64,000 nucleotides of DNA from Trypanosoma brucei (lineage: Eukaryota): NCBI GenBank assembly GCA_000002445.1, contig CH464492.1, positions 64,001-128,000 of the forward strand, read 5' to 3'. The notes beneath the pieces were generated by a model that saw only the letters and a list, made by a program, of their open reading frames with translations, was not told the origin of the DNA and did no database searches. Position 1 is the first letter of the stretch; every line of letters begins with the position of its first letter. Made by a program: the position numbers and the translations under genes. Of the stretch, positions 6,796-39,822 are shown one piece after another.

Positions 6796-6850
6796 TTTTC
6801 CTCTCTTCCTGCTAATTAATTTTCTCATTCCAGTTTTTCTAGTCTTTTAG

Positions 6851-7968: not shown

Positions 7969-8192
7969 AACCCTAACCGAATAACCCTAACCCTAACCCT
8001 AACCCTAACCCGCTAACCCGAAACACCCTAACCCTAACCCGCTAACCCGAAACACCCTAACCCTAACCCGCTAACCCGAAACACCCTAACCCTAACCCGC
8101 TAACCCGAAACACCCTAACCCTAAGCCTAAGCCTACCTAACCCCCCTCCACCTACCTAACTACCCCCCCCCCATTCCTACCTAGGTACCTAC
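7969..8192 (+). repeat. Telomere-type C-strand tract (CCCTAA)n with four tandem 29-bp telomere-derived repeats and a C-rich tail
   Basis: Perfect ccctaa hexamers at 7984-8010. Then caccctaaccctaacccgctaacccgaaa occurs four times (29-bp period, ~8016-8130). Then cctaagcctaagcctacctaacccccctccacctacc. This resembles the 29-bp telomere-adjacent repeats described at T. brucei chromosome ends. Confidence 0.8.
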
Positions 8193-16520: not shown

Positions 16521-16619
16521 ATTAAATTTTTGAAAAACGTTTTGCTCAATTTTGTGAAATTTTTGAAATTTTTCTAAAATATGATATTCTTTTCACAGTT
16601 TTTCTCATATCTCTACAAA

Positions 16620-19600: not shown

Positions 19601-20320
19601 ATATCGTGAAGCTACGAGTAGTGGGTAATTTTCATTTTGTGTTCTCACACTGCGGGGTCCCAAGAAATGAAGCAGTTGACAAAGAAGCAGAGAAAGACGA
19701 TAAAATGCTAAGGACATATCCAGCATGGATCACGGACATAGTCACATGTATAGAAAGGCAAATACATCGAGAAAGGGACAATGAATTCGAAGAGGTCCAA
19801 AAGTCACAAACAAATCGCAGTGCTCTACTCAACCATATTAAACCTACGCAGAAAATATCCAAAGTGGACAGGATGGGAAAATCATTACTAGCGCAATTTA
19901 GAATAGGTACATCGAAACAATTCGGATGGCTACATCATGTATTCACAAAAGAAAACAGTGCAAAATGAGTGTAGATAGCGTCGTCGTGACTATGTGGAAC
20001 TGGAGACAGCTGTGAATGGGAAAGCGAGAAGTACACAGAATGATAATACGGAAACACAGTCATCACAGGTAACGGTAAGACAAAATGAGCCCATAATATC
20101 CCCGTTGTGCAACGTTGTGGGTGCACGTCTTCAAGCCAGAGTAGTGCACCTTATGAAGATACACAGTTGGGAAAGAGAAAGAGCACTGACAATGATGAAG
20201 ATAGCAAAAATTGGCGGTGCAGGAATATAAAGGTAAATACGGTTGCCATGTTTGTAAAAGGGATTGTGAGGTAAGAGGTTTACTTGTGGAGCACATGGTC
20301 ACAGACACAGACGCACACAC
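16620..20320 (+). mobile_element. DIRE (degenerate ingi/L1Tc-related non-LTR retroelement), interrupted by many stops
   Basis: The 5' region is collinear with the ingi 5' end (…ggcgcctgccgcctcatcgtggttccagggt… versus ingi …ggcgatgccggccacctcaacgtggtgccagggt…). It has a 2A-like motif LLKGDVEQNPGP at 16857-16883. It has RT remnants (PDMQIPTARKR…, and GFYADDLTIICT at ~18440, a YxDD box). It has an RNase H remnant (WSDGSVVLDASSGASAMMYS…CSYREDCVATEAGL, 19259-19501), an ingi-like segment FVFSHCGVPRNEAVD, and a terminal zinc-finger-like stretch CHVCKRDCEVRGLLVEHM. Confidence 0.7.
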
Positions 20321-23300
20321 ACACACCCTCTACCGCAAACCTAACACGTAACTCCTTCAAACCGGGCCAGCTCATCAAGTGCGGCGACGTTTCTTCGCAG
20401 ACGCCGCGTTGGCTGGTAACAGCGCGCTCTACCTTCATACCGTGCATCTTCTTTTGATATAGGGTGAGGCCAGTTTTGCTAGCACACTGCCTTCCGCATG
20501 TCGGGTACACCAACATGGATGTGTTTGTATGCGGGGAATCAGTGGCACACGATTTCGTGCTTTTGCTGCATTTAAGCTCGATTCCCTCACCTTTGTGGAA
20601 AGCCTTACAGTGTCGGATGAGGGAGTCCCTGCAACTGAGCACTTTTTGGCACACACCACACTGCACCTCGCCTTTCCCCGGGACGTCAACGTTTCCCTCA
20701 CGGGCACGCTTACGAGGGATTTGCACCACCACCACGGTACCGTCCTCCGTCACTATGCTCTTATGTTTGAATTTCTTGTGTAGTGACAGGGAAGAGCGTG
20801 TACCAATGCTCGCCTCGCACAGGTCACATTGAAACGGCAGCTTCCGTGTATCCTGAGGGGCTGGCGCTGCTGGGGCTCTACCATCTCCTTGCAACGAGTC
20901 CTCGTTTTCTCGCCCCCTTTTCACGCGGCAACTACCGCTACCTATGCCATGTATTGTTCTAAGGTGGTGTAATAGTCGGCCTGGCACTGCGAATTTGGAG
21001 GCACAGATGGTACAATGAAGCACCTGCGGTCTCATCGGGACTCGTGTGCTCGATGGTAGAGGAACGATCGCTACCACTGGAGGGGGCTCCTGGGGGATGT
21101 CCACTGCGGGTGTTGCATCGCCGTATTTGATCCTCCGGAGGGCATCAGCTCGCACAAAGCCATGTTTGTTTACCATATGCGTTACAGCACTCGAGCGGCA
21201 TTGGTATGTGGCATCACATTCCGTATATTAGGTCGGTTCGGAGGTTCTCTGAAGAGTGCGTGTCGCAACAGTTGGGGATGTTTGTATTGTGGGTCCTATT
21301 GCTTCATGTTTCGGGTTACACCATCGGCACTGTGGAGGCACACTCGGGTTGATATTTCGCAACATCCATCCATAGTGTCTTGAAGAACCAACCCGAAAGC
21401 GTGCCAGTGCCGTTTCTTCTTTCCTCGTCAGTTCTTCATTATGTTTTGTTGGAAAGTGGTTGCCCGTGATACCAAACCTATGAGTGTTCTCATGGACTTC
21501 TTCCGACCTAAGCACTCGCTTCGCATAAGAAATGATGTCGGGGATCCATGTGTCTCGCAACTGTGGTAAATCAGCGGCCTTTTTGGCCATTCCATCGCAA
21601 ACCTCATTCCGTTTCACGCCACAATGGCCAAACACAAATTGCAGTCGAATACGCACCTTCCTTCTCTGAACTTGAAGCAGAAGCCTCCATAGTCGTCTCA
21701 GAATTGGGTCCGTTACGGCTAGGAGGCCTGTCTGCAGTGCTGTCAACATTGACAGCGAGTCAGAGAAGATGGAAAACCTGCTCGGTGTGCTTCTGTATGC
21801 CGGAAGCCATTTCAAGCAGCCGTTGCAGTCCTATCTCTAATGCTACGCATTCCACTCTGTAACTGCATGAGAGTTCCCTTGCTCCGGTCTTGGGTGCACA
21901 AATCAGCGTGTTGTTTCTATAGAGCAGGGCAGCTGCTCCGGACTTCTCACCGAGGGACACGGATCCATCAGTCCACAATTCGTAGTGCTCTCGTCGCGGT
22001 GGCTCCTTCCCCCTCCGTGCAAAATGTCGTGCAATCCACTTTTCGGAAGCCTCCCTTTTGACATCGTCAGGGTCATCAGCGCACACAGCCTTTATCTGCG
22101 TGTGAAATAGCGGTCGGCAGCTGTGGCGGAGCGTCGATGTCTCCAGTGGGTGCTCGCTCGGCTCCATGCGGAGGTGGGGGTAGGACCGTATGATGCGGGA
22201 ATGTAGGGCTCTGACTGGGTGTTTGCTGTGGTATACTTCCTCAGCACTGCGACGCAAATATCCATCTCGTGACTCACACATCAGCATGAATTTCATGATG
22301 CGCACAAGAGTGGTCGTCTTGAGTGGCAGGAGGTTTGCTTCCAGCAGAGAGTCCTCTTTGCGCGTCCCATGCGGTATGCCAGCTATGATTAGACTAGCCT
22401 TGTGTTGTGCTGCTGCAAGGAGGTCGCGACTTCGGTTCTAAGCGTCCCAGTACCATACCTCAATGCCATACATGGTGTGTGCCTGTACGAGTGCTAGATA
22501 AAAAGCTCTCAGTACTTGTCGTCTTGGCCCCCATGTAGAAGCTGAGATGGCTGCTATCTGCAGTAGTAGGAAGTCCATCTTGCGTCTCGTTTCGGCCGCA
22601 TGTGTTGCCATCCCTTGCAGACACTGGAATGTTACTCCAAGAAGCTTCAGTGTCCTGTCAGCTCCTATTCTTTCGCCGTCCAGTTGTAATGTAAGGGGGT
22701 GGCGCCCTATACACCCGAAGAGTGTGCACTTTGTTTTCGCTATATTGACAGACATGAAGTACTCTTGTGACCATTGTAACACCACGTTTAGACCGCATTG
22801 TAGCGTGTGGTTGATGACATCCCTCTCTGTGTGCCTCGCAAGTAGCGTTAGGTCGTCTGCAAAGAATCCGTGCTGCAGTAACGGCACTTCGACAAGGCGT
22901 TGGCTCAACGAGTTCATGACAATAATGAACATGATTGTGCCAAGGACAGTTCCTTGTGGCACTCCTCGCTCAAATGTTCTGCTGCTGGAAAGCTTCTCCT
23001 TGAATCTCACTCTGCCAGTTCAGTTACTCAGAAATGATACGAACCACTTCACAATGTGGGGTGATACCTTCATTCTGTGCATTTCCCTCGCAATTTTGTC
23101 GTGGTCCACTGTATCAAATGCCTTCTCGTAGTCGACGAATACAGCACCCGTACGATATTGGTGCGTGGGACGGCAGAGGGCAGCGCGGACGTGCAGGAGT
23201 TGTTCGAGCGTTGAGCATCCGGGGCGAAAGCCTGATTGCTGCGGCGTCAGCTGGGACTCAACAGTGTCTCTAAGTCTCGCGGCAATTATGCGCTCCATGA

Positions 23301-25049
23301 CTTTGCAGAGACAGCTCGTGAGCGTCACAGGCCTGTAAGAATCGAGGTCCTCCCACTTTTTTCCGGCCTTCAGGATGGGGATGATAACACCAGTCTTCCA
23401 TGCAGGCGGCACGACTCCCGTTCGTAGGCTCTCATTGAATAGCCTCAGAACAAAACTCAGCGCTGTTCTACCGAGATGTTGCAGTGCCTCGTTGTATAAG
23501 CAATCAGGTCCGGGTGCGGATCCACTCGGAAGCAGTTTGATCGATCTCCGTAGTTCAGCCATCGTGATGGGACTGAACTCACTCGCTATCGTCTTTATTG
23601 GTGCCGGTGGGTGTGAGTCGGGGTGCCTTCTTGCGCGGGACGAGTACAGTTTACTGAACCTCTCAGCTTGACGGTAGTCCGTGATGGCCGCGTTATCAAC
23701 AAGTACCGCCGGTGTGGTTAGTGGTCGTGGCGCATATACCTTCTTGACAATGTGCCAACTGCAGCGGTCTGACACCGCAAGTCTGGAGCATAGCGTGCTC
23801 CATCTCTTCTTTGTGGTACGGTCCAGAATCTGCTTACGCGTGGCTACCAACTTTTCCCTTCGGTGGGAGGGTCCGCATCCAGCGATCTCTTCATCGAGTT
23901 TCGCGAGCTCAGGTGTCCAATGTGGTGGCGTTGCTCTGCAGCCATAGAGCACGGAGACCTTCGTCGCAATGCGGATGGCGGAGCTCAATTTCTGTTCCAG
24001 GGTGTTGACGTTCTTCTCTCTACCAATTTTCCTGCAGAGCTCGTCAACCTTGAGACGGAAATTCCTCCAGTCAGCTTTTAGCCATGCGTACATGGGCTTT
24101 CGAAGCCGCGGGCAACTCAGTGCATCTGTGCCGTCTCCAACGATAACGTCGAAAAATATGTGATGGTGATCGCTATCGGGAGAATACAGCGATGTCCACG
24201 TGTACACTGTGCAATTCCTTGACAGTGTCACATCAGGGGTGGACTCCCCGTGGTGGCGTGCGTACCTGGTGCACTCACCAGTGTTGCAGACCAGAAACTG
24301 GTTGTCAATGCACCACTGTGTGAGGGTTTCACCCTTGGTATTTGGTGGGCTCGCGCGATCCCATGCCAACGCGTGTGCGTTAGCGTCTGCACCGATGAGC
24401 TGGGCACCGTCAGTCGTCAGAAGCGTATCTAGGTCAGTTGCCGTGAAGGTGTGTTTTGGTGGGATGTATGCCGACGTGACAGTCAGCGCCGTTCCACGTG
24501 CAAGGTGAATTGTTGCATGCACTTGTTCAATGCGACCAACAACGGTCATACCAGTCTCGACTAGCAGGTTCTCCATCACTAGTATTGATACACCACCTCC
24601 TTTGCAGTTACGAGCTATTCTGTGATGTCGGTAGCCAGCAACGCTAAAGCAAACCACCTCTCCAGGCGTCATCCTTGTCTCGCTCAACAGACAAAAGACA
24701 ATCCGCTCATCAACAAGGGTTTTGTGAAGTGCTAATCTCTTTCCTTGAGATAGCCAGGCGCAGTTCCACTGCATCCCGCGAAACAACTAGACGGGATTCT
24801 CTTCCACATCACCGGACAGCAGCATGTTAGTGCGTATGATACTGCTGATGACACGCTGGCACGTGGCCAGGGACCGACAAATGAAAAACGGTGTCCCAGC
24901 AAGACGCTGCTGATCCCTGTGCTGTATGATGCCGTAGCCGGAGCACAGCAGTGTTCCCCATGAAAGGAAAGCTGCTGGCTCTTCGCTTCCCCCGATGATA
25001 CGGGGTACTGGACCCTGGCAACACGTTGAGGTGGCCGGCATCTCCGGGG
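20320..25049 (-). mobile_element. ingi: ingi non-LTR retrotransposon, copy 1, 3'-truncated and interrupted
   Basis: The minus-strand ORFs 23020-24786 (2A-like motif, AP-endonuclease, RT N-terminus), 22438-23010 (RT with FADD), 21760-22305 and 21228-21815 (RNase H region) and 20280-21176 (C2H2 zinc fingers) are collinear with, and by eye almost identical to, the + strand copy at 33650-38910. The 5' end is at ~25049 (reverse complement of ccccggagatgccggcc). Similarity to copy 2 stops at ~20320 inside a (GT/CA)n run. About 0.58 kb of 3' sequence, including the poly(A), is therefore missing. Confidence 0.85.
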
Positions 25050-25243
25050 ACTACCATAGTACGTTACCCTTATAGGCGACTATTAAACATGTTCTGCTAA
25101 AATTTTATTTTTTATAGCTTTTAAAAATGTTACAATCCCTCAATGGCTTTACACAATTTTAAAATATAAGAATTATTAATAATTTTTTGATAAACGTTAT
25201 AAATTTAAGAAAAAATTCTTTGAAAGTTAAAATTCTTCAAAAC

Positions 25244-26961
25244 TCACAAAATAAGCTGCAGTAGAAGCAAATTTCTTTTTGCAATAAAACTGGAATAGCG
25301 GTATCTTTTTGAATCCTTGTCATATTCACATTCTTTACCCTTCCTCCATGCACAATTTTGCTTGTCACCTGTTTTGTCACTTTCACAATCAGGCTGATTT
25401 TTGTGCCTTGCACATCCAGATGTTGTTGCTCCCCCTTTTGTTGTTCCTCCTGTTCCTGCTGCTGTGTTTTCTTTTCCAGGTTTAGGCTTGCATTCCTTTT
25501 TAGTTTTCTCATATTCGCATCCGTTGTTTTTGCAATCTGTTTTATTTTTGTTGAACATAGCGCATTTATTATGTTCTTCTACTGTGGGTTCTTTGACTCC
25601 CCCTGCTGGTGTGTTGGCACCTTGCGGTGACATTTACATATCTGCCGCAAGCAAAAAAGCCTCCATTTGTGTAGCAATTGTTTCTGCTTTGGTTACCTCG
25701 GCTGCAGCTGCCTGTGCTTCGTTACTGATTTGTGCTAACTTTTTTTGAGCATCCTGGAGCGCTTTGATCCATGCTATATGCTGTCCAGGTTTGAGTAAAT
25801 CAGCGTAGTCTATGCAAATCCCTTTGTTTGCGGTCGTTAAGTCGGAGCCGCCTGCTTTATCGCACTTAGTTTGTGCTGTACCGGCCACATTGTACGCGCC
25901 GAATAAAGATCGGTGCTTTCCCGCCTGTGCGCTGCTGCATTTCCCAGTTCTGCCTGAGGAATCCAGTTAGTTCCCAGGTCGGCGTGAAACGTCGAAATTG
26001 CTGCGGCTATGTTTGCTGTTGTTAGTTCTGTCCCTGTTGTGTGTGTTGCCGAGTCGCATGCTTTTGTTAGAGTCTTAAAAGCCGCCGCTGCCGCCCCCTG
26101 ATTGCCGGCGCCGCCGCTGAAGTCGCCCGTCACCGGTTGGGCCGTCCCGCACGTGTTGTCTTGAGCTGAGTGTGAGATGACACACAGACAGACCAAGTCC
26201 GTGGCCAGTGCTGCTCCCGGTTTGCCGGCGTTGTTTGATGCTTTCGCACATGTCGCCGCTCTTGTGCTGCTGTCGTCCCACGGGAATTGAGTGGCTGGGA
26301 GCGCCGTAAGCAACGCGTTTGGGTCAGTGAGCGCGTTTATTGTCGGTGCCGCAGCTTTTCCGTATAGTGCTGTTAGCAGGTCTTTCCGCAGTTGCAGCCT
26401 GGTCTGTTTTATTGTAGTGTCTAATGAAGTTACGGCGCTATTGATTTCTTCCGCTTTGGTCGCCAGCTTGGTAAGTTTCGACCTGAGGATTTGTCTTTTG
26501 CCTTCACTGAGTGGGAGGCCGTACTCCGTGTTGAACGCCTTCAGTTTTGCGGAGTTGGTCTGCAGGTCGTTGTAGTCTTTGATCATGGTGTCGAGTAGTT
26601 TGTTGTCTATTCCGGCAAAAAGGTTTTTGACTGGACTGCTCTCTGCCTGCAATTTGGCTGCTGTTCCGTACTTTTCCTTTGCTTTTAGAGCCTCAGTCAT
26701 TTGGGGCTCTGCCGCCGTTAAATTGAGGTTGACAATCTTTGCTAGGATTGTCTTCATTCGCTCCTTGGCAGTTTCTTCTGTGGTAGCTGTGCCGATCGCC
26801 GCCATTTTTGGTTCAGGTGGAACTGCTGTCAAAAGTTTGTAAATTACACAGAGATCCCTGAACTCTTTGGCATTCTCTCCGGCGCTGTTTGCAGATCCCA
26901 CTGTGAAAATTGCGATGAGAACCAGCTTTATAAACAATTTCGCCAGTATTTGTGAGTGCAT
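25244..26961 (-). pseudogene. VSG pseudogene (three overlapping ORFs, two frame changes)
   Basis: ORF 25837-26961 has a signal peptide (MHSQILAKLFIKLVLIAIFTVGSANS) and an N-domain (DLVCLCVISHSAQDNTCG). ORF 25634-25888 continues it. ORF 25244-25633 has a Cys-rich C-domain ending YSSFIAKRNLLLLQLIL*. Confidence 0.75.
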
Positions 26962-28167
26962 TTTGCTGCTTGCATGAAAGAAAATTGTGGGAAGTTAAAA
27001 ATACACAACTTCTGCGTAACATATGAGGTGAAACGAATTGTTTCTAGCTTCAGTTTCTGTGATATTGAAGAGGTCTTAAAAACAGCACTCAGTTAAGCAA
27101 AATAATCTTCTATTTTTGAATCTAACCTACAGTATTCTATATCTATATCTAAGGAGTATATAATATATGTGTTGCAATAGCTTCTATCATATGGTAGTCT
27201 TCAGACCGTCTTTTGACTCAGAATGACCAGGTAACGTCGCTGCTTCTCTGAGAAACTGTCGAGCTTCTGCTTTTGTCCCACGCCATTGGTGACTGCATTA
27301 AGCCACCGTTTAACACACGGTAATTTGGGTCATGAAAGCTCTTTTTTGCTTCTCTCTTTGCTTATTCGTGATTCTAACAGCGGCTCTGCAATCACCATTA
27401 TATGTGTTACTTGTTCTTTAAATGGTGTTAGTTGTTTCCCCATGCAAAGAAAGGCGAGGATGGAGTGCGGCTCTTCATTCACTCTAATTCACAAAGATTC
27501 TCTATTTGTTTATGTATGCTCTATCTTAATAAGTTTTCACGTTTTTTAATTTTATCTCTCCCCGACAATTCATTAGTTGTCTTAGTTGTAAAATCTTTTT
27601 CCCTATAATATAATATTGTTTTCCGCAAATTTTAAGATTATTATTATATTTAATGCGAATATGAGTTCAAAATTACCCCACAGTTACCCAATTCCTCAGT
27701 CTCCCTCTTCTTTAATCGCAGACGTATATCAGGATTCACCAATAAATTAATAACCACAGTTTCCAACATCATTTTACAAGTGGTTTCTACTGATTTTAGT
27801 AAAAATGAGAGCGGAACCACTCCAACGTCACTTTCTCATGCTCTGTAGTGTCGCATCTTCTGTGTTTTTACTCTGTACTTTATTTCTTTTTTCTCTTTTG
27901 TTAATTCTGCAGACGATGTAACAACCATATTTGACATGTACAGTTAATGCTATCTCTCCCTCATTATTTTCTATATCAGCTCTTTGTATATGATGATTAC
28001 AAACTAACAAAGGCAGCATCGATACTCAGAACAATTTTCTTACTGACAAGAAAACTTGAAGAGCGGCATTTGTAAGATCATTTATCGGATCCATCGTTTT
28101 CTTTCGCCCTTTCATCCACAAACTTTGATTGTTTTACCTTCATTGTCCTTTCCACGACCAGGTTGGG

Positions 28168-29640: not shown

Positions 29641-30879
29641 CTGCAGGAATGGCTGGTTGGCCGTTTCTGTTCAGCCGGGTCATGGTTGTCGTGATTTTTT
29701 ATAAATGCCAATAAAACTCTGCAACTCTTTTCTGCCCTGTTGCTGCATATCGTCATGTTGTAAGAGTTGTAGTACCTGTTCTCTACCTTGAAGGAAATTT
29801 CTGAAAACTCCACTCTTTGAAGGCGGTAAATTTGTTTGTTTAAATGCAAGTTGATTCCCACTATATCTAAGACAATTAATATTTATTTCCTTCGCTACTG
29901 TTTATCATATGTTACTTTTCAGATTTATGCTCGACTCAAAATAACAATGTATAGTTACTTTCATTCCACAATCCGATTCTTTTTCTCGCTTCTTATTTGC
30001 ATTTGCTGTGTCTGCATTTCGACAGTGCGCAAGACTTGTAAATTTGAATCCGAAAAGTGCTTTTTACTACCTTTTCTTTATTAACTCTTGATGTTATCCT
30101 TTCACCGCCGACAACTCTTGTATGAATTGTGCGTTCCTTAAACGGTTTTAGCGTCTGCCTAGTATACCAATACGTAATTGGAGAACTATCACCACTGGCT
30201 CTTTGCCCTTCGTATAATAACCCTCACAATTCATAAGTGTTCTATTTTAAGAAGCTTCTGCATTTCCATTCTTCTTTTGCTATCCATATGATTCCACCAT
30301 TATTCTTTGTTCCAAAACTTTTTCAGATAATATTGTATTTTTTTCCGCAAATGTTGGTTACTGTTAATATACATGATGAGAATAGTTCAACATTACTTAA
30401 TACTTACAAAATCCTTTCAATATGCTTCTGTTTCCACATAAAGGCTTTAGATTTGCCATTAGATTAAATATAACAGTTTCCAAAATTACCTCCGTAAGAG
30501 TATCTACACACTTTTGAGCAAAATAAATCCCATCATTGGCTCAGCCTGACGTATTATTTTCCCTTTTGCTATTGCCCATATCGTTGTTTCACCCCATTTT
30601 TAAATTTCCTTCTGTTTCAATCATTTCGGATAACGCAGCAACTCCACTTGACTTGTACACTGAATTCTGTCTTTCCATGTTTGTATCCTCCATCATATTA
30701 TCGTGTATGATGATGAAGCCACTCATAATCTTTGTGTTTAACACTGAGCATATTCTATCTCCCTCTTTCTCTTTATTTTTGCTATCCTCCAAGTTACTGG
30801 CACATTACCATCCCCATTTTTTTAAGTGATTCTATTTCAATGTCCATTGGCCGTGATAGCTACCCTTGCCACAATATTA

Positions 30880-30935
30880 GCATATACACACTCACAACAC
30901 TCTCCTATCGTTATCACTATAATTAATATTTTTTA
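30880..30935 (-). repeat. Degenerate 70-bp repeat copy, reverse orientation
   Basis: cacactcacaacactctcctatcgttatcactataat is the reverse complement of the 70-bp repeat core. Confidence 0.55.
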
Positions 30936-31269
30936 ATTGTAATATTAGTAGATAAACGCTGACAACACACTTCTATTATTATTCCCACTATTATTACAAC
31001 CCTAACCAATATGCATAAAATTAGAAAAATAAGATAAAAAATATTAGCACTCATTTTTAATAGCCTGTGACTCTACGAATTTTTACCCATAGTTCTAATT
31101 GTAATATATTTTACAAAAAAATTAAGATTTTTCAAATTTTCAAAGTTTTTACTAATTTGTAAATTTTTATCAAAAAGTGAAATATATCAAGTTATAGAAA
31201 ATTATATAAATATCATAAAATTAAGCAAAAAAATTCACTAGAGTTTTAAAATGAAATCTAACTCGTAAA

Positions 31270-32765
31270 TGCATAAACAATCAGAGCTATTTTCTTATTT
31301 ACAACAGAACTGGAATCTCTGCAATCTTCACCTTCCAATTTACAGCTTTTGACATTTTCACAAACGGCTTTCTCAGTGCCGTGTTTTGTACATCCAGTTT
31401 CTTCTGCTGGTCCCGTTCCTGATTGGGTTGCTTATTGTGCTGCTTTTGTATTCAATTTGCATCTTTTTCATCAGGTCCTTCCTATTTGCAGTGGCCTTTT
31501 TGTTTGCAGTCGCTTGCTTTCTGTATCTCCTCACACTCTTTGGCCTTGCTAGTTTGTTCTTCTTTGTTCGTTTTGGTTAATGATTCGGGTGGATTCTGCT
31601 GCGCCTGTTGTTTCTTTATTAGCTGAACTTGAGGTAGCATGCTGAACGCCAGAGTTTTCAGCTTTTGCAATTTTTTGTTGCCTGCCAGGATTTGTGCCCT
31701 TTTGGCTTCTCTGCTGTGAAGTAAGTTTGAAGCCTTGATTAGCTCTTTGCGCCACGGCATATTGTTTATCTTTTCTACATCGCTTTTGCTGGCCGTTTTG
31801 TACATTGCACACACGCCTTGGCCGGTGTTGCCGTTGCAGCCCGTGCCTGTGTAGCTGCCGATGAACATGTTTGTTGTTTTTGTTGTGAACTTTGCTTTTA
31901 GGGTTTTGATCGCTGCCGTTAACTCAGCGCTTGTGATTGGGTTGCTACTGGTTTGGCAGTGCTTTATGAGGTCTTCGCCTAAGTCTTTAAGGTTGTTTAG
32001 CGTGGCTTCGACTTGGTCGTCGGCCTGATTTGTTATGCAGAGGTCGGCTTCTCCTGAGTCTGCCCCTTTGCCGCATACGCAAAGGGCGATCGTAATTAGC
32101 GCTTCTGCTTTGGCAGATGTCCCTGACGTGCCGCACAGGGCTGTGTGGCTGGCTGCAGCGTTTTTTAGTTTGTTGTTGTCAAGCTTTGTCGCCGCGCTGT
32201 CCGGTTGGCCAAAAAGGCCTGTATTTAGGGCTTGTATGATGTTTGCTGGCGTATCCGGGGCTGCATCCTGTGTTAGGCTGTTAAGTTCGACATTTATTGC
32301 GGCTGCTTGTTCAGCAACGGGCTGTAGCAACTGCAGATAAAGTTGCTTGTCGGTGCCGCTTGCCCCTCCAAGGCCTGCCCGTTTTTCGATTGCTGCCGCT
32401 TTGTTTGGTTCCTCCAGCGCCTCCTCCGCTGCTATCCAGTCTGGCCAGCGCTCTTTTTGAATGGTGTCTTCCCCTTGTTTTGGCGTTGTATACTCCGGCC
32501 TGGGTTTGCCTTGCCCTGGCTTGGCGAATTTCTTGCGCCACTCCGCGTCACTTAAAGATGTATTTAGTTGTAGGATGTCTAGATAATCAGTCTTTGCCGT
32601 ATAGGTGTCGTCCGGTGTTTGTGATATTCTCGTCGGTGCAGTTAACAGTTCGCACAGGTTGTGAAAAAGATGTGCGTGCTCGCCGGTCGTTGGGCCGGTC
32701 GCGGTCCGGGATACTATGAGCAGCATCGCTAAATATGCTGTCGCTTGTTGGAGATAGCCTAGCAT
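31270..32765 (-). pseudogene. VSG pseudogene with a frameshifted C-terminus
   Basis: ORF 31482-32765 (427 aa) has a signal peptide (MLGYLQQATAYLAMLLIVSRTATG), an N-domain (ITIALCVCGKGADSGEADLC) and a C-domain (KECEEIQKASDCKQKGHCK). In another frame at ~31270-31420 the reverse complement encodes …CKLEGEDCRDSSSVVNKKIALIVYAFTS*, a degenerate GPI signal. Confidence 0.75.
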
Positions 32766-33609
32766 GCTTCACTTTGTTATGGTGCTTCTTTGATTTGAAG
32801 GCAGTTAGGTGGTAGAATTAGGGGATACAAGTTTTCTGCTGCTGCTGTTTTGCCTTAGTTATGCTCATTACCTACGCAATAATCCTGTATCATTGTTAGC
32901 ACATTTCCTTTATATCAGCCGTTAAATCGAATAAAAATTCTACAAACAATATGAGCTTCCATTTCATAAACTAAATTGTTAACATATACATTCGGTACAA
33001 GATAGGCAGCCACGGCCGCCGCCATCACCAGTGTTTTGCCTGTTCATTTTCGTGTAAAATGTGGTTCTATTTTAAGTCAAATAGAGTATTTTCGAGTGTT
33101 TAATCTTAAGGTTCTCTACGGTTAAGTTTCCTAGCCGCAGAGTCAAGTCGTGATTTATATATTTTTTACCCTTTATTTTGCGAATAATATTCTGATGTTC
33201 TAAAAGACGCTTCTTCCCATCTCTTTCTAAATATTCCCTTAATCAGGAACTTCAATGTTGTTGGTTCTTCCATATGTTCCACTGTCCGGCGAGGGTTGCT
33301 GTCACTTATTGCTTTCCTTTAAACTTACAGATCCAGAAAGATGTAACGGAGATGAAATGTCTATTAGAAATGTCTGCAACATTGGGTCCACATACTTTAT
33401 TAAGTAGGATCATTTCTACTAAATATACCATTTCAGCTATGTTTTCAAGCCAATTTGGGTTTCATATGGGAAAATAGAAAAACTTGCTTTCTATTTAATA
33501 TACTTCCAATTTTCATGAGTGTAGCTTCTAGTGAGTCTCATTATTTTCTTCACTATCTCTTCAGGATGTCACAGTTTTTTGTGCTTTTACTTTTTTGTTT
33601 TGATGTACT

Positions 33610-34479
33610 TTGGAGTTTAACGCTGCTGGAAACGATAAGCAGCATTGCTCCCTGGCGATGCCGGCCACCTCAACGTGGTGCCAGGGTCCAGTACCCCGTA
33701 TCATCGGGGGAAGCCAAGAGCCAGCAGCGTTCCTTTCATGGGGAACAATGCTGTGCTCCGGCTACGGCATCATACAGCACAGGGATCAGCAGCGTCTTGC
33801 TGGGACACCGTCTTTCATTTGTCGGTCCCTGGGCACGTGCCAGCGTGCCATCAGCAGTATCATCCGCACTAAGATGCTGCTGTCCGGTGATGTGGAAGAG
33901 AATCCCGGCCCGTCGTTGCGCGGGATGCAGTGGAACTGCGCCGGGCTATCTCAAGGAAAGAGATTAGCACTCCACAAAACCCTTGTTGATGAGCGGATCG
34001 CCTTTTGTCTGTTGAGCGAGACAAGGATGACGCCTGGAGAGGCGGCTTGCTTTAGCGTTGCTGGCTACCAACATCACGGAATAGCTCGTAACTGCAAAGG
34101 AGGTGGTGTATCAATACTAGTGAGGGAGGACCTACCAGTCGAGACCGGTATGGCCGTTATTGGTCGCATTGAACAAGTGCATGCAACAATTCACCTTGCA
34201 CGTGGAACGGCGCTGACTGTCACGTCGGCATACATCCCACCAAAACACACCTTCACGGCAACTGACCTAGATACGCTTCTGACGACTGACGGTGCCCAGC
34301 TCATCGGTGCAGACGCTAACGCACACGCGTTGGCATGGGATCGCGCGAGCCCACCAAATACCAAGGGTGAAACCCTCACACAGTGGTGCATTGACAACCA
34401 GTTTCTGGTCTGCAACACTGGTGAGTGCACCAGGTACGCGCGCCACCACGGGGAGTCCAGCCCTGATGTGACACTGTGA
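33610..34479 (+). CDS. ingi N-terminal segment: 2A-like peptide plus apurinic/apyrimidinic-like endonuclease domain (289 aa, ends at a premature stop)
   Basis: Contains LLSGDVEENPGP at 33886-33912, then QWNCAGLSQGKRLALHKTLVDERIAFCLLSETRMTPGE…, typical of the endonuclease N-terminus of L1Tc/ingi-type elements. Confidence 0.8.
   Translation: MEFNAAGNDKQHCSLAMPATSTWCQGPVPRIIGGSQEPAAFLSWGTMLCSGYGIIQHRDQQRLAGTPSFICRSLGTCQRAISSIIRTKMLLSGDVEENPGPSLRGMQWNCAGLSQGKRLALHKTLVDERIAFCLLSETRMTPGEAACFSVAGYQHHGIARNCKGGGVSILVREDLPVETGMAVIGRIEQVHATIHLARGTALTVTSAYIPPKHTFTATDLDTLLTTDGAQLIGADANAHALAWDRASPPNTKGETLTQWCIDNQFLVCNTGECTRYARHHGESSPDVTL
33635..33649 (+). repeat. Target-site duplication (left copy) of ingi copy 2: ATAAGCAGCATTGCT
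   Basis: The identical 15-mer recurs at 38911-38925, immediately after the element's poly(A). Confidence 0.8.
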
Positions 34480-34491
34480 AGGAATTGCACA

Positions 34492-35664
34492 GTGTACACG
34501 TGGACATCGCTGTATTCTCCCGATAGCGATCACCATCACATATTTTTCGACGTTATCGTTGGAGACGACACAGATGCACTGAGTTGCCCGCGGCTTCGAA
34601 AGCCCATGTACGCATGGCTAAAAGCTGACTGGAGGAATTTCCGTCTCAAGGTTGACGAGCTCTGCAGGAAAATTGGTAGAGAGAAGAACGTCAACACCAT
34701 GGAACAGAAATTGAGCTCCGCCATCCGCATTGCGACGAAGGTCTCCGTCCCCCGTGGTTGCAGAGCAACGCCACCACATTGGACACCTGAGCTCGCGAAA
34801 CTCGATGAAGAGATCGCTGGATGCGGACCCTCCCACCGAAGGGAAAAGTTGGTAGCCACGCGTAAGCAGATCCTGGACCGTACCACAAAGAAGAGATGGA
34901 GCACGCTATGCTCCAGACTTGCGGTGTCAGACCGCTGCAGTTGGCACATTGTCAAGAAGGTATATGCGCCACGACCACTAACCACACCGGCTGTACTTGT
35001 AGATAACGCGGCCATCACGGACTACCGTCAAGCTGAGAGGTTCAGTAAACTGTACTCGTCCCGCGCAAGAAGGCACCCCGACTCACACCCACCGGCACCA
35101 ATAAAGACGATAGCGAGTGAGTTCAGTCCCATCACGATGGCTGAACTACGGAGATCGATCAAACTGCTACCGAGTGGATCCGCAGCCGGACCTGATTGCT
35201 TATACAACGAGGCACTGCAACATCTCGGCAGAACAGCGCTGAATGTTGTTCTGAGGCTATTCAATGAGAGCCTACGAACGGGAGTCGTGCCGCCTGCATG
35301 GAAGACTGGTGTTATCATCCCCATCCTGAAGGCCGGAAAAAAGGCGGAGGACCTCGATTCTTACAGGCCTGTGACGCTCACGAGCTGTCTCTGCAAAGTC
35401 ATGGAGCGCATAATTGCCGCGAGACTTAGAGACACTGTTGAGTCCCAGCTGACGCCGCAGCAATCAGGCTTTCGCCCCGGATGCTCAACGCTCGAACAAC
35501 TCCTGCACGTCCGCGCTGCCCTCTGCCGTCCCACGCACCAATATCGTACGGGTGCTGTATTCGTTGACTACGAGAAGGCATTTGATACAGTAGACGACGA
35601 CAAAATTGCGAGGGAAATGCACAGAATGAAGGTATCACCCCACATTGTGAAGTGGTGCGTATGA
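34492..35664 (+). CDS. ingi middle segment (RT fingers/palm N-terminal part), 390 aa
   Basis: …LPSGSAAGPDCLYNEALQHLG…PILKAGKKAEDLDSYRPVTLTSCLCKVMERII…FRPGCSTLEQLL…AVFVDYEKAFDTVDDDKI…. Confidence 0.8.
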   Translation: MYTWTSLYSPDSDHHHIFFDVIVGDDTDALSCPRLRKPMYAWLKADWRNFRLKVDELCRKIGREKNVNTMEQKLSSAIRIATKVSVPRGCRATPPHWTPELAKLDEEIAGCGPSHRREKLVATRKQILDRTTKKRWSTLCSRLAVSDRCSWHIVKKVYAPRPLTTPAVLVDNAAITDYRQAERFSKLYSSRARRHPDSHPPAPIKTIASEFSPITMAELRRSIKLLPSGSAAGPDCLYNEALQHLGRTALNVVLRLFNESLRTGVVPPAWKTGVIIPILKAGKKAEDLDSYRPVTLTSCLCKVMERIIAARLRDTVESQLTPQQSGFRPGCSTLEQLLHVRAALCRPTHQYRTGAVFVDYEKAFDTVDDDKIAREMHRMKVSPHIVKWCV

Positions 35665-35688
35665 TTTCTGAGTAACCGAACTGGCAGA

Positions 35689-38637
35689 GTGAGATTCAAG
35701 GAGAAGCTTTCCAGAAGCAGAACATTTGAGCGAGGAGTGCCACAAGGAACTGTCCTTGGCCCAATCATGTTCATTATTGTCATGAACTCGTTGAGCCAAC
35801 GCCTTGCAGAGGTGCCGTTACTGCAGCACGGATTCTTTGCAGACGACCTAACGCTACTTGCGAGGCACACAGAGAGGGATGTCATCAACCACACACTACA
35901 ATGCGGTCTAAACGTGGTGTTACAGTGGTCAAAAGAGTACTTCATGTCTGTCAACGTAGCGAAAACAAAGTGCACACTCTTCGGGTGTATAGAGCGCCAC
36001 CCCCTTACATTACAACTGGACGGTGAAAGAATAGGAGCTGACAGGACACCGAAGCTTCTAGGAGTAACATTCCAGTGTCTGCAGGGGATGGCAACACATG
36101 CGGCCGAAACGAGACGCAAGATGGACTTCCGACTACTGCAGATAGCAGCCATCTCAGCTTCTACATGGGGGCCAAGACGACAAGTACTGAGAGCTTTTTA
36201 TCTAGCACTCGTACAGGCACACACCATGTATGGCATTGAGGTATGGTACTGGGACGCTTCGGAACGAAGTCGCGACCTCCTTGCATCAGCACAACACAAA
36301 GCCAGTCGCATCATAGCCGGCATACCGCATGGGACGCGCAAAGAGGACTCTCTGCTGGAAGCAAACCTCCTGCCACTCAAGACGACCACTCTTGTGCGCA
36401 GCATGAAATTCATGCTGATGTGTGAGTCACGAGGCGGATGTTTGCGGCGCAGTGCTGAAGAAGTATACCACAGCAAACACCCAGTCAGAGCCCTACATTC
36501 CCGTATCATGCGGTCCTACCCCCACCTCCGCATTGAGCCACGCGAAAACCCACTAGAGACATCGACGCTCCGCCACAGCTGCCGACCGATATTTCACACG
36601 CAGATAAAGGCTGTGTGCGCTGATGACCCTGACGATGTCAAAAGGGAGGCTTCCGAAAAGTGGATTGAACGACATTTTGCACGGAGGGGGAAGGAGCCAC
36701 CGCGGCGAGAGCACTACGAATTGTGGACTGATGGATCCGTGTCCCTCGGTGAGAAGTCCGGAGCAGCTGCCCTGCTCTATAGAAACAACACGCTGATTTG
36801 TGCACCTAAGACAGGAGCAGGGGAACTTTCATGCAGTTACAGAGCGGAATGCGTAGCATTAGAGATAGGACTGCAACGGCTGCTGAAATGGCTTCCGGCA
36901 TACAGAACCACACCGAGCAGGTTGTCCATCTTCTCTGACTCGCTGTCAATGTTAACAGCACTGCAGACAGGCCCCCTAGCCGTAACGGACCCAATTCTAA
37001 GACGACTATGGAGGCTTCTGCTTCAAGTTCAGAGAAGGAAGATACGTATCCGACTGCAATTTGTGTTTGGCCATTGTGGCGTGAAACGGAATGAGGTTTG
37101 CGATGACATGGCCAAAAAGGCCGCAGATTTACCACAGTTGCGAGACACATGGATCCCCGACATCATTGCTTATGCGAAGCGAGTGCTTAGGTCGGAAGAA
37201 GTCCATGAGAACACTCATAGGTTTGGTATCACGGGCAACCACTTTCCAACAAAACATAAGGAAGAACTGACGAGGGAAGAAGAAACGGCACTGGCACGCT
37301 TTCGGGTTGGGTCTTCAAGACACTATGGATGGATGTTGCGAAAGATTAACCCGAGTGTGCCTCCACAGTGCCGATGGTGCAACCCGCAACATGCAGAGAT
37401 AGGGCCAACAATACAAACAGCCCCAACTGTTGCGACACGCACTCTTCAAAGAACCTCCGAACCGACCAAATGTACGGAATGTGATGCCACATACCAATGC
37501 CGCTCGAGTGCTGTAACGCATATGGTAAACAAACATGGCTTTGTGCGAGCTGATGCCCTCCGGAGGATCAAATACGGCGATGCAACACCTGCAGTGGATA
37601 TCCCCCCGGAGCCCCCTCCAGTGGTGGCGATCGTTCCTCTACCATCGAGCACACGAGTTACGATGAGACCGCAGGTGCTTCATTGTACCATCTGTGCCTC
37701 CAAATTCGCAATGCCAGGCAGACTACTACACCACCTTAGAACAATACATGGCATAGGCAGCGGTAGTTGCCGCGTGAAAAGGGGGCGAGAGAACGAGGAC
37801 TCAGAGCAAGGAGATGGTAGAGCCCCAGCAGCGCCAGCCTCTCAGGATACACGGAAGCTGCCGTTTCAATGTGACCTGTGCGAGGCGAGCTTCGGTACAC
37901 GTTCTTCCCTGACACTACACAAGAAATTCAAACATAAAAGCATAGTGACGGAGGACGGTACCGTGGTGTTGGTGCAATTCCCTCGTAAGCGTGCCCGTGA
38001 GGGAAACGTTGACGTCCCGGGGAAGGGCGAGGTGCAGTGCGGTGTGTGCCAAAAAGTGCTCAGTTGCAGGGACTCCCTCATCCGACACTGTAAGGCTTTC
38101 CACAAAGGTGAGGGAGTCGAGCTTAAATGCAGCAAAAGCACAAAATTGTGTGCCACTGATTCCCCGCATACAAACACATCCATGTTGGTGTGCCCGACAT
38201 GCGGAAGGCAGTGTGCTAGCAAAACTGGCCTCACCCTACATCAAAAGAAGATGCACGGTATGAAGGTAGAGCGCGCTGTTACCAGCCAACGCGGCGACTG
38301 CGAAGAAACGTCGCTGCACTTGATGAGCTGTCCCGGTTTGAAGGAGTTACGTGTCAGATTTGCGGTAGAAGGTGAGTGTGTGCAGGATGTATGTTTCTCC
38401 AAAAGGCTGGCGCAGTTTCTCATTGCGGTTGAACGGAGCCGGCCGCAGGTGAAGTCCTCACCTAAGGTAACAGTCATACAACCCACTCTCCCTTCTGCAA
38501 CTTCCCCCCTTATTGCCGAGTGTGGAGCCAGCAGGAAAAGCACCGGACGCAGGAATAGTCCAGACACCCTCAGAGACAGAGGAGGTATGCAGTCAACAAG
38601 CAACAAAAACAGAAACAGAAAGAGGGGGAGAGAATAA
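35689..38637 (+). CDS. ingi polyprotein C-terminal segment (reverse transcriptase, RNase H, C2H2 zinc-finger domains), 982 aa
   Basis: Has the RT YxDD box (GFFADDLTLLA), an RNase H segment (ELWTDGSVSLGEKSGAAALLY…CSYRAECVALEIGLQ) and a Cys2His2 cluster (CTICASKFAMPGRLLHHLRTIHG; CDLCEASFGTRSSLTLHKKFKH). Confidence 0.85.
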   Translation: MRFKEKLSRSRTFERGVPQGTVLGPIMFIIVMNSLSQRLAEVPLLQHGFFADDLTLLARHTERDVINHTLQCGLNVVLQWSKEYFMSVNVAKTKCTLFGCIERHPLTLQLDGERIGADRTPKLLGVTFQCLQGMATHAAETRRKMDFRLLQIAAISASTWGPRRQVLRAFYLALVQAHTMYGIEVWYWDASERSRDLLASAQHKASRIIAGIPHGTRKEDSLLEANLLPLKTTTLVRSMKFMLMCESRGGCLRRSAEEVYHSKHPVRALHSRIMRSYPHLRIEPRENPLETSTLRHSCRPIFHTQIKAVCADDPDDVKREASEKWIERHFARRGKEPPRREHYELWTDGSVSLGEKSGAAALLYRNNTLICAPKTGAGELSCSYRAECVALEIGLQRLLKWLPAYRTTPSRLSIFSDSLSMLTALQTGPLAVTDPILRRLWRLLLQVQRRKIRIRLQFVFGHCGVKRNEVCDDMAKKAADLPQLRDTWIPDIIAYAKRVLRSEEVHENTHRFGITGNHFPTKHKEELTREEETALARFRVGSSRHYGWMLRKINPSVPPQCRWCNPQHAEIGPTIQTAPTVATRTLQRTSEPTKCTECDATYQCRSSAVTHMVNKHGFVRADALRRIKYGDATPAVDIPPEPPPVVAIVPLPSSTRVTMRPQVLHCTICASKFAMPGRLLHHLRTIHGIGSGSCRVKRGRENEDSEQGDGRAPAAPASQDTRKLPFQCDLCEASFGTRSSLTLHKKFKHKSIVTEDGTVVLVQFPRKRAREGNVDVPGKGEVQCGVCQKVLSCRDSLIRHCKAFHKGEGVELKCSKSTKLCATDSPHTNTSMLVCPTCGRQCASKTGLTLHQKKMHGMKVERAVTSQRGDCEETSLHLMSCPGLKELRVRFAVEGECVQDVCFSKRLAQFLIAVERSRPQVKSSPKVTVIQPTLPSATSPLIAECGASRKSTGRRNSPDTLRDRGGMQSTSNKNRNRKRGRE

Positions 38638-38910
38638 TAAACGAATAACAAAAAACAAAACAAAAGGATTGCTAATTGACATCTTTGGGAGAGTCCGGGG
38701 TGAGGGGGGCTTCTCGCCCCATCTACTGTATTCCGTTCAACTGCGGAGCTACAACAAAAATTATAGAGGGTGTGTTAGGATGAATAAAAAAGGGAGACTC
38801 TGCCACAGTCGCCAGACCGATAGCATCTCAGGGCTCTACGGTGATGGCTGATGGCCGCGCCAGTTGGGAGAAACTCTCACGAAGGCACGAAGAAAATTAA
38901 AAAAAAAAAA

Positions 38911-38925
38911 ATAAGCAGCATTGCT
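38911..38925 (+). repeat. Target-site duplication (right copy) ATAAGCAGCATTGCT
   Basis: Directly follows the ingi poly(A). Identical to 33635-33649. Confidence 0.8.
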
Positions 38926-39183: not shown

Positions 39184-39610
39184 TTAGTCTTCACCACCCC
39201 TCTTATTATAAGGTTCGTATACACACTCACAACACTCTCCTGTTATTATCATCATTATTATTATTACTATCATTATTACTGCTCTTATTATAATATTCGT
39301 ATATACACTCTCACTCTCACAACACTCTCCTATTATTATTATTATTATTATTATTATTACTGCCCTTATTATAATATTCGTATATGCATACTCACAACAC
39401 TCTCCTATTATTATTATTATTATTACTGCTCTTATTATAATATTTGTATATACACACTCACAACACTCTCCTATTATTATTATTATTATTACGGATCTTA
39501 TTATAATATTCGTATATACACACTCACAACACTCTCCTATTATTATTATTATTATTACGGATCTTATTATAATATTCGTATATACACACACTCACAACAC
39601 TCTCCTATCA
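39184..39610 (-). repeat. Tandem array of ~6 70-bp repeats in reverse orientation, with long (ATT)n tracts
   Basis: Repeated units of cttattataatattcgtatatacacactcacaacactctcctattattattatt… This is the only multi-copy 70-bp array in the window. Confidence 0.9.
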
Positions 39611-39822
39611 TTATCGTTACATCACTATTTTAATGCTAACAAGTATCCATAAGTGACTTAAATAAACAAAATAAAGTAAATTAGAATAACACTAACTTGT
39701 CATACCATTATCCATACTGCTGTTGAACCACACGCTACATTAATACCAAATTGCAAACTTTAAATATTTTGAATTTTTTAGTTATCATGGTGTTCGCGAA
39801 TTTTTATATTTGCATTTAATAG

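What the first reader, a model, noticed from the sequence alone, without database searches (positions are those of the whole stretch)
20320..38910. Two near-identical ingi copies in inverted orientation bracket an 8.6-kb block carrying three VSG (pseudo)genes
ingi copy 1 (minus strand, 20320-25049) and copy 2 (plus strand, 33650-38910) share ~4.7 kb.

By eye their proteins are almost identical. For example GKKWEDLD versus GKKAEDLD, and SAPGPD versus SAAGPD.

Large inverted repeats at this spacing are a substrate for homologous recombination. Recombination would invert the intervening segment, 25050-33650, which holds the VSGs at 25244-26961, 28168-29640 and 31270-32765.

They are also a classic cause of assembly collapse or mis-orientation. 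The arrangement may explain the local switch from plus-strand VSGs on the left of the window to minus-strand VSGs on the right.
Basis: partly seen in the sequence, partly recalled or inferred. Interest (0 to 1): 0.55.

Follow-up and report, generated by a model that had tools for sequence, protein, structure and literature searches.

The report
Two unrelated ingi insertions flanking VSGs
Two copies of the common trypanosome jumping gene "ingi" do sit head-to-head around three silent surface-antigen genes, but they are independent insertions no more alike than any two ingi copies, and the block between them shows no sign of having flipped, so this is ordinary.

Summary
Arms 20316-25049 (minus) and 33650-38382 (plus) align over 4,734 nt at 96.45% identity (168 mismatches, one 1-nt indel) around an 8.6-kb spacer. 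The spacer carries three minus-strand VSG pseudogenes.

The interpretation mostly fails.
- The two copies are not specially related. Copy 2 is closer to ingi copies on other chromosomes of T. b. equiperdum (97.9%, 97.4%) than to copy 1. The phylogeny is star-like and no disabling mutation is shared.
- Copy 2 is a young, full-length (5.26 kb) element. It has a poly(A) tail and an exact target-site duplication, one half inside the block and one half outside. So the block has not undergone a net inversion since copy 2 inserted, and the assembled orientation is right.
- Copy 1 is older and 3'-truncated.
- The block has the same orientation as the right-hand VSG array. The plus/minus switch lies at about 20.3 kb.

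The pair remains a possible but mismatch-penalised recombination substrate. Novelty: already known kind. Interest is low.

The parts
20316..25049 (-). ingi copy 1. The 5' end is intact (79-nt signature at 25049-24971). The 3' end is truncated at 20316, lacking the last ~530 nt, the poly(A) tail and any target-site duplication. Four private stop codons plus one 1-nt frameshift. 101 private substitutions, so this is the older copy.
33650..38911 (+). ingi copy 2. Full length (5.26 kb) with the 79-nt 5' signature and a single reading frame broken only by two private TCA>TGA stops (34477, 35662). Domains: endonuclease, RT, RNase H, C2H2 fingers. A13 tail at 38899-38911. 28 private substitutions, so this is the younger copy.
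33635..33649 (+). 5' half of the target-site duplication of copy 2 (ATAAGCAGCATTGCT; canonical 12 nt = AGCAGCATTGCT, 33638-33649). It lies inside the inter-ingi block.
   Evidence: only two exact occurrences in the window; 0 of 100 shuffles reach the observed count
38911..38925 (+). 3' half of the target-site duplication of copy 2 (12-nt core 38914-38925). It lies outside the block.
25050..33649 (-). 8.6-kb spacer holding three minus-strand VSG pseudogene cassettes: 25247-26961 (B-type plus C-terminal domain, split ORF), 28171-29460 (A-type, ends out of frame) and 31461-32765 (B-type, C-terminus out of frame). 70-bp-type repeats at 30860-30993.
16613..20303 (+). It has a remnant of the 79-nt signature at its 5' end and at least 7 frame changes. 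It is collinear with T. vivax and T. congolense ingi-type proteins (37-65% aa) and only 22-45% identical to Tbingi. It is 3'-truncated inside a C2H2 finger.
20304..20316 (.). Tail-to-tail junction of the DIRE-like element (+) and ingi copy 1 (-) in a CA/GT-rich stretch. This is the actual convergent strand-switch point of the VSG arrays; AT skew flips here.
39195..39625 (-). 70-bp-type repeat array (66-nt period) belonging to the cassette of VSG 31461-32765. Copy 2 is inserted between this array and its VSG. Without the element the spacing would be about 1.15 kb, like the other cassettes in the window.

Best explanation
The window is a silent VSG array of Trypanosoma brucei. The two 'bracketing' repeats are two independent retrotranspositions of the abundant non-LTR retrotransposon ingi, and they landed in opposite orientations 8.6 kb apart.

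Copy 1 is old. It lies 194 nt downstream of a minus-strand VSG, in the same orientation as that VSG. It later lost its 3' ~530 nt, poly(A) tail and 3' target-site duplication. This happened in a non-homologous, probably microhomology-mediated, joining event that fused it tail-to-tail to a much older degenerate ingi-related element on the plus strand.

Copy 2 is young. It inserted by target-primed reverse transcription into the spacer between a 70-bp repeat array and its VSG, creating a 12-nt (apparent 15-nt) target-site duplication that is still perfect.

Their 96.45% identity is the family-wide level, not evidence of local duplication or homogenisation. The block between them has not undergone a net inversion since copy 2 arrived. 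The plus-to-minus switch of VSG orientation is located at the DIRE/ingi-1 junction (~20.31 kb), not between the two ingi copies.

Shown: the repeat, its identity, the anatomy, the target-site duplication, the star phylogeny, the third element and the position of the switch.
Inferred: the relative ages, microhomology-mediated joining as the cause of the truncations, and a reduced but non-zero potential for future ingi-ingi recombination.
For: - Repeat and identity.
- Domains.
- Tbingi identity: the 982-aa ORF is 95% identical to a 60-member T. b. equiperdum/gambiense cluster, while the next hits (T. vivax, T. congolense) are 36-40%.
- Pairwise identities in the shared 4.73 kb: c1-c2 96.45, c2-L002 97.89, c2-L004 97.38, c2-L001 96.45, c1-L002 96.13.
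- Site patterns: private changes are c1 101, c2 28, others 40-88. Shared c1+c2 states number only 6 and are scattered, fewer than c1+L001 (11).
- All 6 stop codons and the frameshift are private to one copy.
- The low divergence in columns 501-2000 is common to all ingi pairs, so it is not a c1/c2 conversion tract.
- The target-site duplication is exact, occurs only at the two boundaries of copy 2, and straddles the block edge. The 12-bp length is the ingi rule (PMC3820030).
- The missing 3' 530 nt of copy 1 is nowhere else in the window.
- VSG orientation map and AT skew.
- DIRE-like element and junction.
- ingi/DIRE clusters at strand-switch domains are a described feature of T. brucei chromosomes (PMC1868937).
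- An unrelated tail-to-tail inverted ingi pair turned up by chance in one of four comparison loci (L002), so inverted pairs are not rare.
Against: - Only four comparison ingi copies, all from other subspecies, were available, so the 'family-level' baseline is a small sample.
- Copy 1's private substitutions are unevenly spread (15 rather than the expected 32 in columns 501-2000; post-hoc binomial p about 2e-4). This could hide an old conversion patch from some younger ingi, though not specifically from copy 2.
- The target-site duplication excludes an odd number of inversions since insertion, not an even number.
- The microhomology-joining origin of the tail-to-tail junction is inferred from CA/GT-rich sequence only.
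- The strain, the chromosome and the population state of the locus are unknown.
Confidence: 0.85

Rival explanations
1. The inverted ingi pair is an active or polymorphic inversion switch. Homologous recombination between the arms flips the three-VSG block in some cells or isolates.
For: 4.7 kb of homology with nine perfect blocks of at least 100 nt, the longest 280 nt. This exceeds the ~100-bp minimal efficient processing segment of RAD51-dependent recombination in T. brucei (PMC1904282). ingi/RIME recombination is cited as a cause of rearrangements between T. b. brucei and T. b. gambiense (PMC2854126).
Against: - The target-site duplication of copy 2 is intact across the block edge.
- There is no chimeric substitution pattern and there are no shared-derived tracts.
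- The 70-bp-repeat-to-VSG cassette is co-oriented across copy 2.
- 3.55% divergence should lower recombination strongly. Reported penalties on 450-bp substrates with mismatch repair active are 2.8-fold at 1% and about 33-fold at 5%.
- No data from other isolates could be obtained.
Confidence: 0.07
2. The arrangement is an assembly artefact: the block is mis-oriented, or the two ingi copies are collapsed or chimerised by the assembler.
For: Large inverted repeats are a known assembly hazard. Subtelomeric VSG arrays are hard to assemble (PMC2854126).
Against: - 168 fixed differences plus an indel distinguish the copies along their whole length, and the window has no N bases.
- The two copies have different structures: one truncated, the other with poly(A) and a target-site duplication.
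- The target-site halves match only in the assembled orientation.
- Each copy has a uniform age signature with no switch point.
Confidence: 0.03
3. The two copies are products of a local inverted duplication, or are kept alike by gene conversion with each other.
For: Identity is somewhat higher in columns 501-2000 (1.2-2.0% divergence) than elsewhere.
Against: - The same low-divergence zone is seen in every ingi pair compared.
- Homology stops exactly at the element's 5' end, with unrelated flanks.
- Copy 2 has its own target-site duplication.
- c2 is closer to foreign copies than to c1, and there are only 6 scattered shared-derived sites.
- No disabling mutation is shared.
Confidence: 0.02
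4. The pair functions as a hairpin locus. Read-through transcription across both arms yields long ingi double-stranded RNA that feeds the RNAi pathway silencing ingi. This is not exclusive of the best explanation.
For: ingi-derived siRNAs of both polarities make up about half of AGO1-bound small RNAs, and long inverted repeats are siRNA sources in T. brucei (PMC3447711; PMC4721609).
Against: - The described siRNA-producing inverted repeats are 99-100% identical; this pair is 96.45% identical with an 8.6-kb loop.
- VSG arrays are largely transcriptionally silent, and VSG pseudogenes showed no siRNA accumulation.
- There are no expression data for this locus.
- Nothing in the sequence indicates selection for the arrangement.
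Confidence: 0.08

Closest known systems
Tbingi (ingi/RIME family, ingi/L1Tc clade of non-LTR retrotransposons) of Trypanosoma brucei
   Same: 5.26-kb length. 79-nt 5' signature. One long frame encoding endonuclease, reverse transcriptase, RNase H and C2H2 fingers. Poly(A) tail. 12-nt target-site duplication. 95-98% nucleotide identity to other Tbingi copies. 2A-like DVEENPGP motif near the N-terminus.
   Different: Both copies are dead: copy 2 has two in-frame stops; copy 1 has four stops, a frameshift and a 3' truncation without poly(A) or a target-site duplication.
DIRE (degenerate ingi/L1Tc-related elements) in strand-switch domains of T. brucei chromosomes (Obado et al. 2007, PMC1868937; Bringaud et al. 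2007, PMC2323293)
   Same: The plus-strand element at 16613-20303 has a decayed 79-nt signature and heavily frameshifted ingi-type coding remnants. It sits, together with ingi copies, exactly where gene orientation switches.
   Different: Here the switch separates two silent VSG arrays rather than two polycistronic housekeeping clusters or a centromere. There is no AT-rich repeat array. The element is fused tail-to-tail to a truncated ingi.
Long inverted repeats that produce siRNAs in T. brucei (IR1-IR7, Tschudi et al. 2012, PMC3447711)
   Same: Kilobase-scale inverted arms separated by a few kb.
   Different: Those arms are 99-100% identical and are not retroposon copies. This pair is 96.45% identical, consists of independent insertions and has no expression evidence.
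Repeat-mediated inversions between inverted transposable-element copies (for example Ty or IS elements; ingi/RIME-associated rearrangements noted between T. b. brucei and T. b. gambiense, PMC2854126)
   Same: The substrate geometry: inverted homologous elements flanking a unique segment.
   Different: No footprint of an exchange is present. The target-site duplication is intact, there are no chimeric copies, and the cassette is co-oriented across the element.

Membership tests
Tbingi non-LTR retrotransposon | Conserved 79-nt signature at the 5' end | tested here: met
   Copy 2 starts CCCTGGCGATGCCGGCCACC... at 33650. Copy 1 matches the first 258 nt at 95.7% (25049-24792). Three T. b. equiperdum ingi copies start at the same base. 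The signature is the hallmark of the group according to PMC2323293.
Tbingi non-LTR retrotransposon | ~5.25 kb full-length element ending in poly(A) | tested here: met
   Copy 2 is 5,262 nt with an A13 tail. Copy 1 does not meet this: it is 4,734 nt, 3'-truncated and has no poly(A).
Tbingi non-LTR retrotransposon | Single long ORF (~1,657 aa) with endonuclease, RT and RNase H domains | tested here: inconclusive
   The domains are present in the right order in both copies and collinear with an intact 1,656-aa T. b. equiperdum ingi ORF. The ORF is broken by 2 stops in copy 2 and by 4 stops plus a frameshift in copy 1. Both are members by descent but non-autonomous relics.
Tbingi non-LTR retrotransposon | 12-bp target-site duplication | tested here: met
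   Copy 2: AGCAGCATTGCT at 33638-33649 and 38914-38925, with the match extending to 15 nt. The rule comes from PMC3820030. Copy 1: the 3' side has been lost, so it is not testable.
Tbingi non-LTR retrotransposon | High nucleotide identity to other genomic Tbingi copies | tested here: met
   95.2-97.9% identity to three full-length T. b. equiperdum copies.
DIRE (degenerate ingi/L1Tc-related element) | Recognisable but decayed 79-nt signature plus degenerate ingi-type coding sequence | tested here: met
   Signature positions 11-38 match 16631-16658 at 86%. tblastn is collinear with P0008 aa 2-1266 across at least 8 segments in changing frames. There are no Pfam hits on the individual ORFs.
Invertible segment / repeat-mediated inversion | Footprint of exchange: reciprocal chimeric repeats, split target-site duplications, or both orientations observed | tested here: not met
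   The target-site duplication is intact across the block edge. No chimeric substitution profile. No shared-derived tracts. Alternative orientation in other isolates was not testable.
siRNA-producing long inverted repeats of T. brucei | Essentially identical arms (99-100%) | tested here: not met
   96.45% here, against 99-100% in Table 3 of PMC3447711.
siRNA-producing long inverted repeats of T. brucei | Locus-specific small RNAs | not testable with these tools
   No small-RNA data were available.

The most novel reading that the evidence does not exclude
The head-to-head ingi pair is a population-level flip-flop, or a source of hairpin double-stranded RNA. Under this reading it reverses or silences a three-VSG block next to a retroelement-built convergent boundary between two VSG arrays, giving retroelement clusters a structural role in organising the silent antigen archive.
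Probability: 0.06. Interest if true: 0.45.

Novelty: already known. Interest (0 to 1): 0.15.

Why it matters
It matters mainly as a clean negative. An eye-catching 4.7-kb inverted repeat in an antigen-gene array turns out to be two unrelated insertions of a roughly 96-98%-conserved family. A simple internal test (target-site duplication straddling the block edge, plus private-substitution profiles) shows that no net inversion or mis-assembly has occurred.

The useful by-product is the correct placement of the VSG strand switch at a tail-to-tail junction of two 3'-truncated retroelements. This fits the known association of ingi and DIRE elements with strand-switch domains, and it points to non-homologous joining rather than ingi-ingi homologous recombination as the event that shaped this locus.

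Copy 2 also separates one VSG from its 70-bp repeats by 5.3 kb. That could affect how this pseudogene is used as a donor, but this is inference only.

Tried and rejected
- Exact-protein look-ups of three window VSG ORFs and of a 99% relative of the middle VSG, to fetch the locus from other isolates, returned nothing on record. The cross-isolate orientation test could not be run.
- A homologue search with VSG 31485-32765 gave only a context-free 100% entry and paralogues at 75% or less.
- Rfam at gathering thresholds over the whole window gave 0 hits, so there is no curated model hit for the ingi 5' ribozyme or promoter region.
- Pfam on the small ORFs of 16.6-20.3 kb gave nothing. The element was only recognised after a homologue search and tblastn.
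- The PDB sequence search for the middle VSG gave nothing useful.
- A search for a paralogous 'empty site' of copy 2, and for the lost 3' end or target-site half of copy 1 elsewhere in the window, found none.
- The idea that the low-divergence zone (columns 501-2000) is a c1/c2 gene-conversion tract was rejected, because all ingi pairs show it.
- Marcello & Barry 2007 (PMC1950903) is not held in the library.
Full report
**Observation.** A self-comparison of 18-41 kb finds one large inverted repeat, reported in two pieces split by an indel: 21815-25050 / 33649-36884 and 20316-21814 / 36884-38382. Aligned as one unit, it spans 4,735 columns with 168 mismatches (96 transitions, 72 transversions) and a single 1-nt indel, which is 96.45% identity. 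The longest perfect run is 280 nt, and nine runs are at least 100 nt. The outermost aligned base is a chance flank match.

**What the repeats are.** Pfam finds an endonuclease, RVT_1, RNase H and C2H2 zinc fingers in the ORF fragments of both copies. The 982-aa ORF of copy 2 is 95% identical to a 60-member cluster of T. b. equiperdum and T. b. gambiense 'reverse transcriptase' proteins. The next relatives, ingi-type elements of T. vivax and T. congolense, are only 36-40% identical. The surrounding ORFs are VSG_B, A-type VSG and VSG C-terminal domains, and one is 100% identical to a deposited T. brucei VSG. The window is therefore a T. brucei silent VSG array, and the repeats are Tbingi elements.

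**Anatomy of copy 2 (33650-38911).**
- It is full length at 5.26 kb. The literature gives 5.25 kb with a 4,971-nt ORF (PMC3447711).
- It carries the 79-nt 5' signature.
- One reading frame is interrupted only by two TCA>TGA stops.
- It has an A13 tail.
- It has an exact direct repeat, ATAAGCAGCATTGCT, at 33635-33649 and 38911-38925. This sequence occurs exactly only at these two places in the window.
- The canonical ingi target-site duplication is 12 bp (PMC3820030). The three extra matching bases border the A tail.

**Anatomy of copy 1 (25049-20316).**
- Its 5' end is intact.
- It stops abruptly in a GT-rich stretch ~530 nt short of the normal 3' end, with no poly(A) and no duplication.
- It carries four stops and one frameshift.
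- Target-primed reverse transcription starts at the 3' end, so a 3' truncation must be post-insertional. This step is inferred from the established mechanism.

**Are the two copies specially related?** Four independent ingi loci were fetched for comparison: three from T. b. equiperdum chromosomes or contigs and one partial copy from T. b. gambiense.

| Pair (shared 4.73 kb) | % identity |
|---|---|
| c1-c2 | 96.45 |
| c2-L002 | 97.89 |
| c2-L004 | 97.38 |
| c2-L001 | 96.45 |
| c1-L002 | 96.13 |

- Site patterns are star-like: 101 substitutions private to c1, 28 private to c2, and 40-88 private to each comparison copy.
- Only 6 scattered sites are shared by c1 and c2, fewer than c1+L001 (11) and similar to c2+L004 (7).
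- None of the six stops, nor the frameshift, is shared.
- The lower divergence in columns 501-2000 is seen in every pair, so it reflects family-wide constraint and not a c1/c2 conversion tract.
- The repeat homology ends exactly at the element's 5' end on both sides.

The copies are therefore independent insertions, one old and one young. 'Near-identical' is simply the family norm. One of the four comparison loci (L002) itself contains a second ingi in inverted orientation 1.65 kb away, so inverted ingi pairs are not unusual.

**Has the block inverted, or is it mis-oriented?** One half of copy 2's target-site duplication lies inside the block and the other half outside it. A crossover between the inverted copies, or an assembler switching between them, would separate the two halves. 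They are together, so the present orientation is the one in which copy 2 inserted, and only an even number of flips could hide. Three further observations agree.
- The 66-nt-period 70-bp-type repeats at 39195-39625 and the VSG at 31461-32765 are co-oriented on the minus strand. Without the element they would be ~1.15 kb apart, like the other cassettes in the window.
- Copy 2 is uniformly 'young' along its length. Copy 1 is 'old' at both ends, with no reciprocal switch.
- There are 168 diagnostic differences and no N bases, which argues against collapse.

**Where is the strand switch?** Mapping VSG-like segments by tblastn gives:
- Plus-strand VSGs at 2.8-3.9, 5.1-6.5, 11.8-13.3 and 15.2-16.5 kb, with one minus-strand exception at 8.4-9.9 kb.
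- Minus-strand VSGs from 25.2 kb to the end of the window, including all three in the block.

AT skew flips between 20.0-20.5 and 20.5-21.0 kb. Inverting the block would therefore only move the boundary, not create it.

**A third retroelement at the switch.** The 3.7 kb between the last plus-strand VSG and copy 1 looked empty: it is unique in the window and has no Pfam hits. A homologue search with its 149-aa ORF hit T. vivax retroelement proteins. tblastn then showed the whole of 16632-20303 to be collinear, across at least seven frame changes, with T. vivax and T. congolense ingi-type proteins (aa 2-1266 of P0008; 37-65% identity). Identity to Tbingi is only 22-45%. A decayed 79-nt signature marks its 5' end at ~16613-16621, directly after the VSG 3' UTR. 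This is a degenerate ingi-related element (DIRE-like) on the plus strand. Its last recognisable motif is a C2H2 finger (YKGKYGCHVCKRDCEVRGLLVEHMVT) ending at 20303. Reverse-complement ingi-1 homology begins at 20316, with a CA/GT-rich 12 nt in between.

The two elements share no DNA homology, and both are 3'-truncated at non-equivalent positions. The junction is therefore a non-homologous join, plausibly microhomology-mediated (inferred). It is not the product of ingi-ingi homologous recombination. Clusters of ingi and DIRE elements in strand-switch domains are a described feature of T. brucei chromosomes (PMC1868937).

**Recombination potential.** The pair is long enough, with perfect blocks above the ~100-bp minimal processing segment. 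However, T. brucei homologous recombination falls steeply with divergence: 2.8-fold at 1% and about 33-fold at 5% on 450-bp substrates with mismatch repair active (PMC1904282). At 3.55% the pair is a penalised, not a privileged, substrate. ingi/RIME recombination has been invoked for rearrangements between subspecies (PMC2854126), so a rare inversion in some lineage cannot be excluded. I could not retrieve the locus from other isolates.

**Other readings.** ingi siRNAs of both polarities are abundant, and long inverted repeats make siRNAs in T. brucei (PMC3447711; PMC4721609). Those repeats are 99-100% identical, VSG pseudogene regions showed no siRNA enrichment, and there are no expression data for this locus. 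A hairpin-dsRNA role is possible but unsupported.

**Verdict.** The repeat annotation is correct and the coordinates are good. The mechanistic story (inversion, explanation of the strand switch, mis-assembly) is not supported by the internal evidence. What is there is ordinary for a T. brucei VSG array: two dead ingi copies of different ages plus an older DIRE-like relic. The array's convergent switch sits at the DIRE/ingi-1 tail-to-tail junction. Novelty: already known kind. Interest is low.

Noticed in passing
It is closer to T. vivax and T. congolense ingi-type proteins than to Tbingi, and it is fused tail-to-tail to the truncated ingi copy 1 exactly at the VSG strand switch.
   Followed up: yes
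window 6690-6800 (+) and 7968-8183 (CCCTAA on +, i.e. TTAGGG on -): Two degenerate telomere-type repeat tracts face each other. Each lies ~150-200 nt downstream of the conserved 3' 16-mer of one of two convergent VSGs (5103-6527 + and ~8372-9928 -). They look like relics of telomere-proximal VSG copies, or of a telomere-to-telomere join, buried inside the array. The right-hand tract contains a perfect 29-nt unit repeated 4.4 times.
   Followed up: partly
window 33889-33912 (+); homologous site in copy 1 at ~24789 (-): A 2A-like 'DVEENPGP' motif lies near the N-terminus of the ingi ORF in copy 2. In copy 1 the final proline codon of this motif is a TAG stop.
   Followed up: no
window 33650-38911 relative to 39195-39625 and 31461-32765: ingi copy 2 sits between a 70-bp-type repeat array and its VSG, moving them from ~1.15 kb to ~6.4 kb apart. 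This might affect use of this pseudogene as a conversion donor (inference only).
   Followed up: no
L002 2993-8244 (+) and 9899-10971 (-) (T. b. equiperdum CM010672.1): An intact 1,656-aa-ORF ingi has a second ingi tail-to-tail in inverted orientation 1.65 kb downstream, running off the locus end. It is an unrelated example of an inverted ingi pair.
   Followed up: partly
ingi alignment columns 501-2000 (window 24549-23050 and 34150-35649): This 1.5-kb stretch (endonuclease to the start of RT) is 2-3 times less divergent than the rest in all ingi pairs. Copy 1 has a significant deficit of private substitutions there (15 against 32 expected; post-hoc test).
   Followed up: partly
window 25299-25492 and 43493-43686: A 194-nt direct repeat at 77% identity. 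It is the C-terminal-domain region of VSG 25247-26961 and an isolated VSG C-terminal fragment at ~43.5 kb.
   Followed up: no
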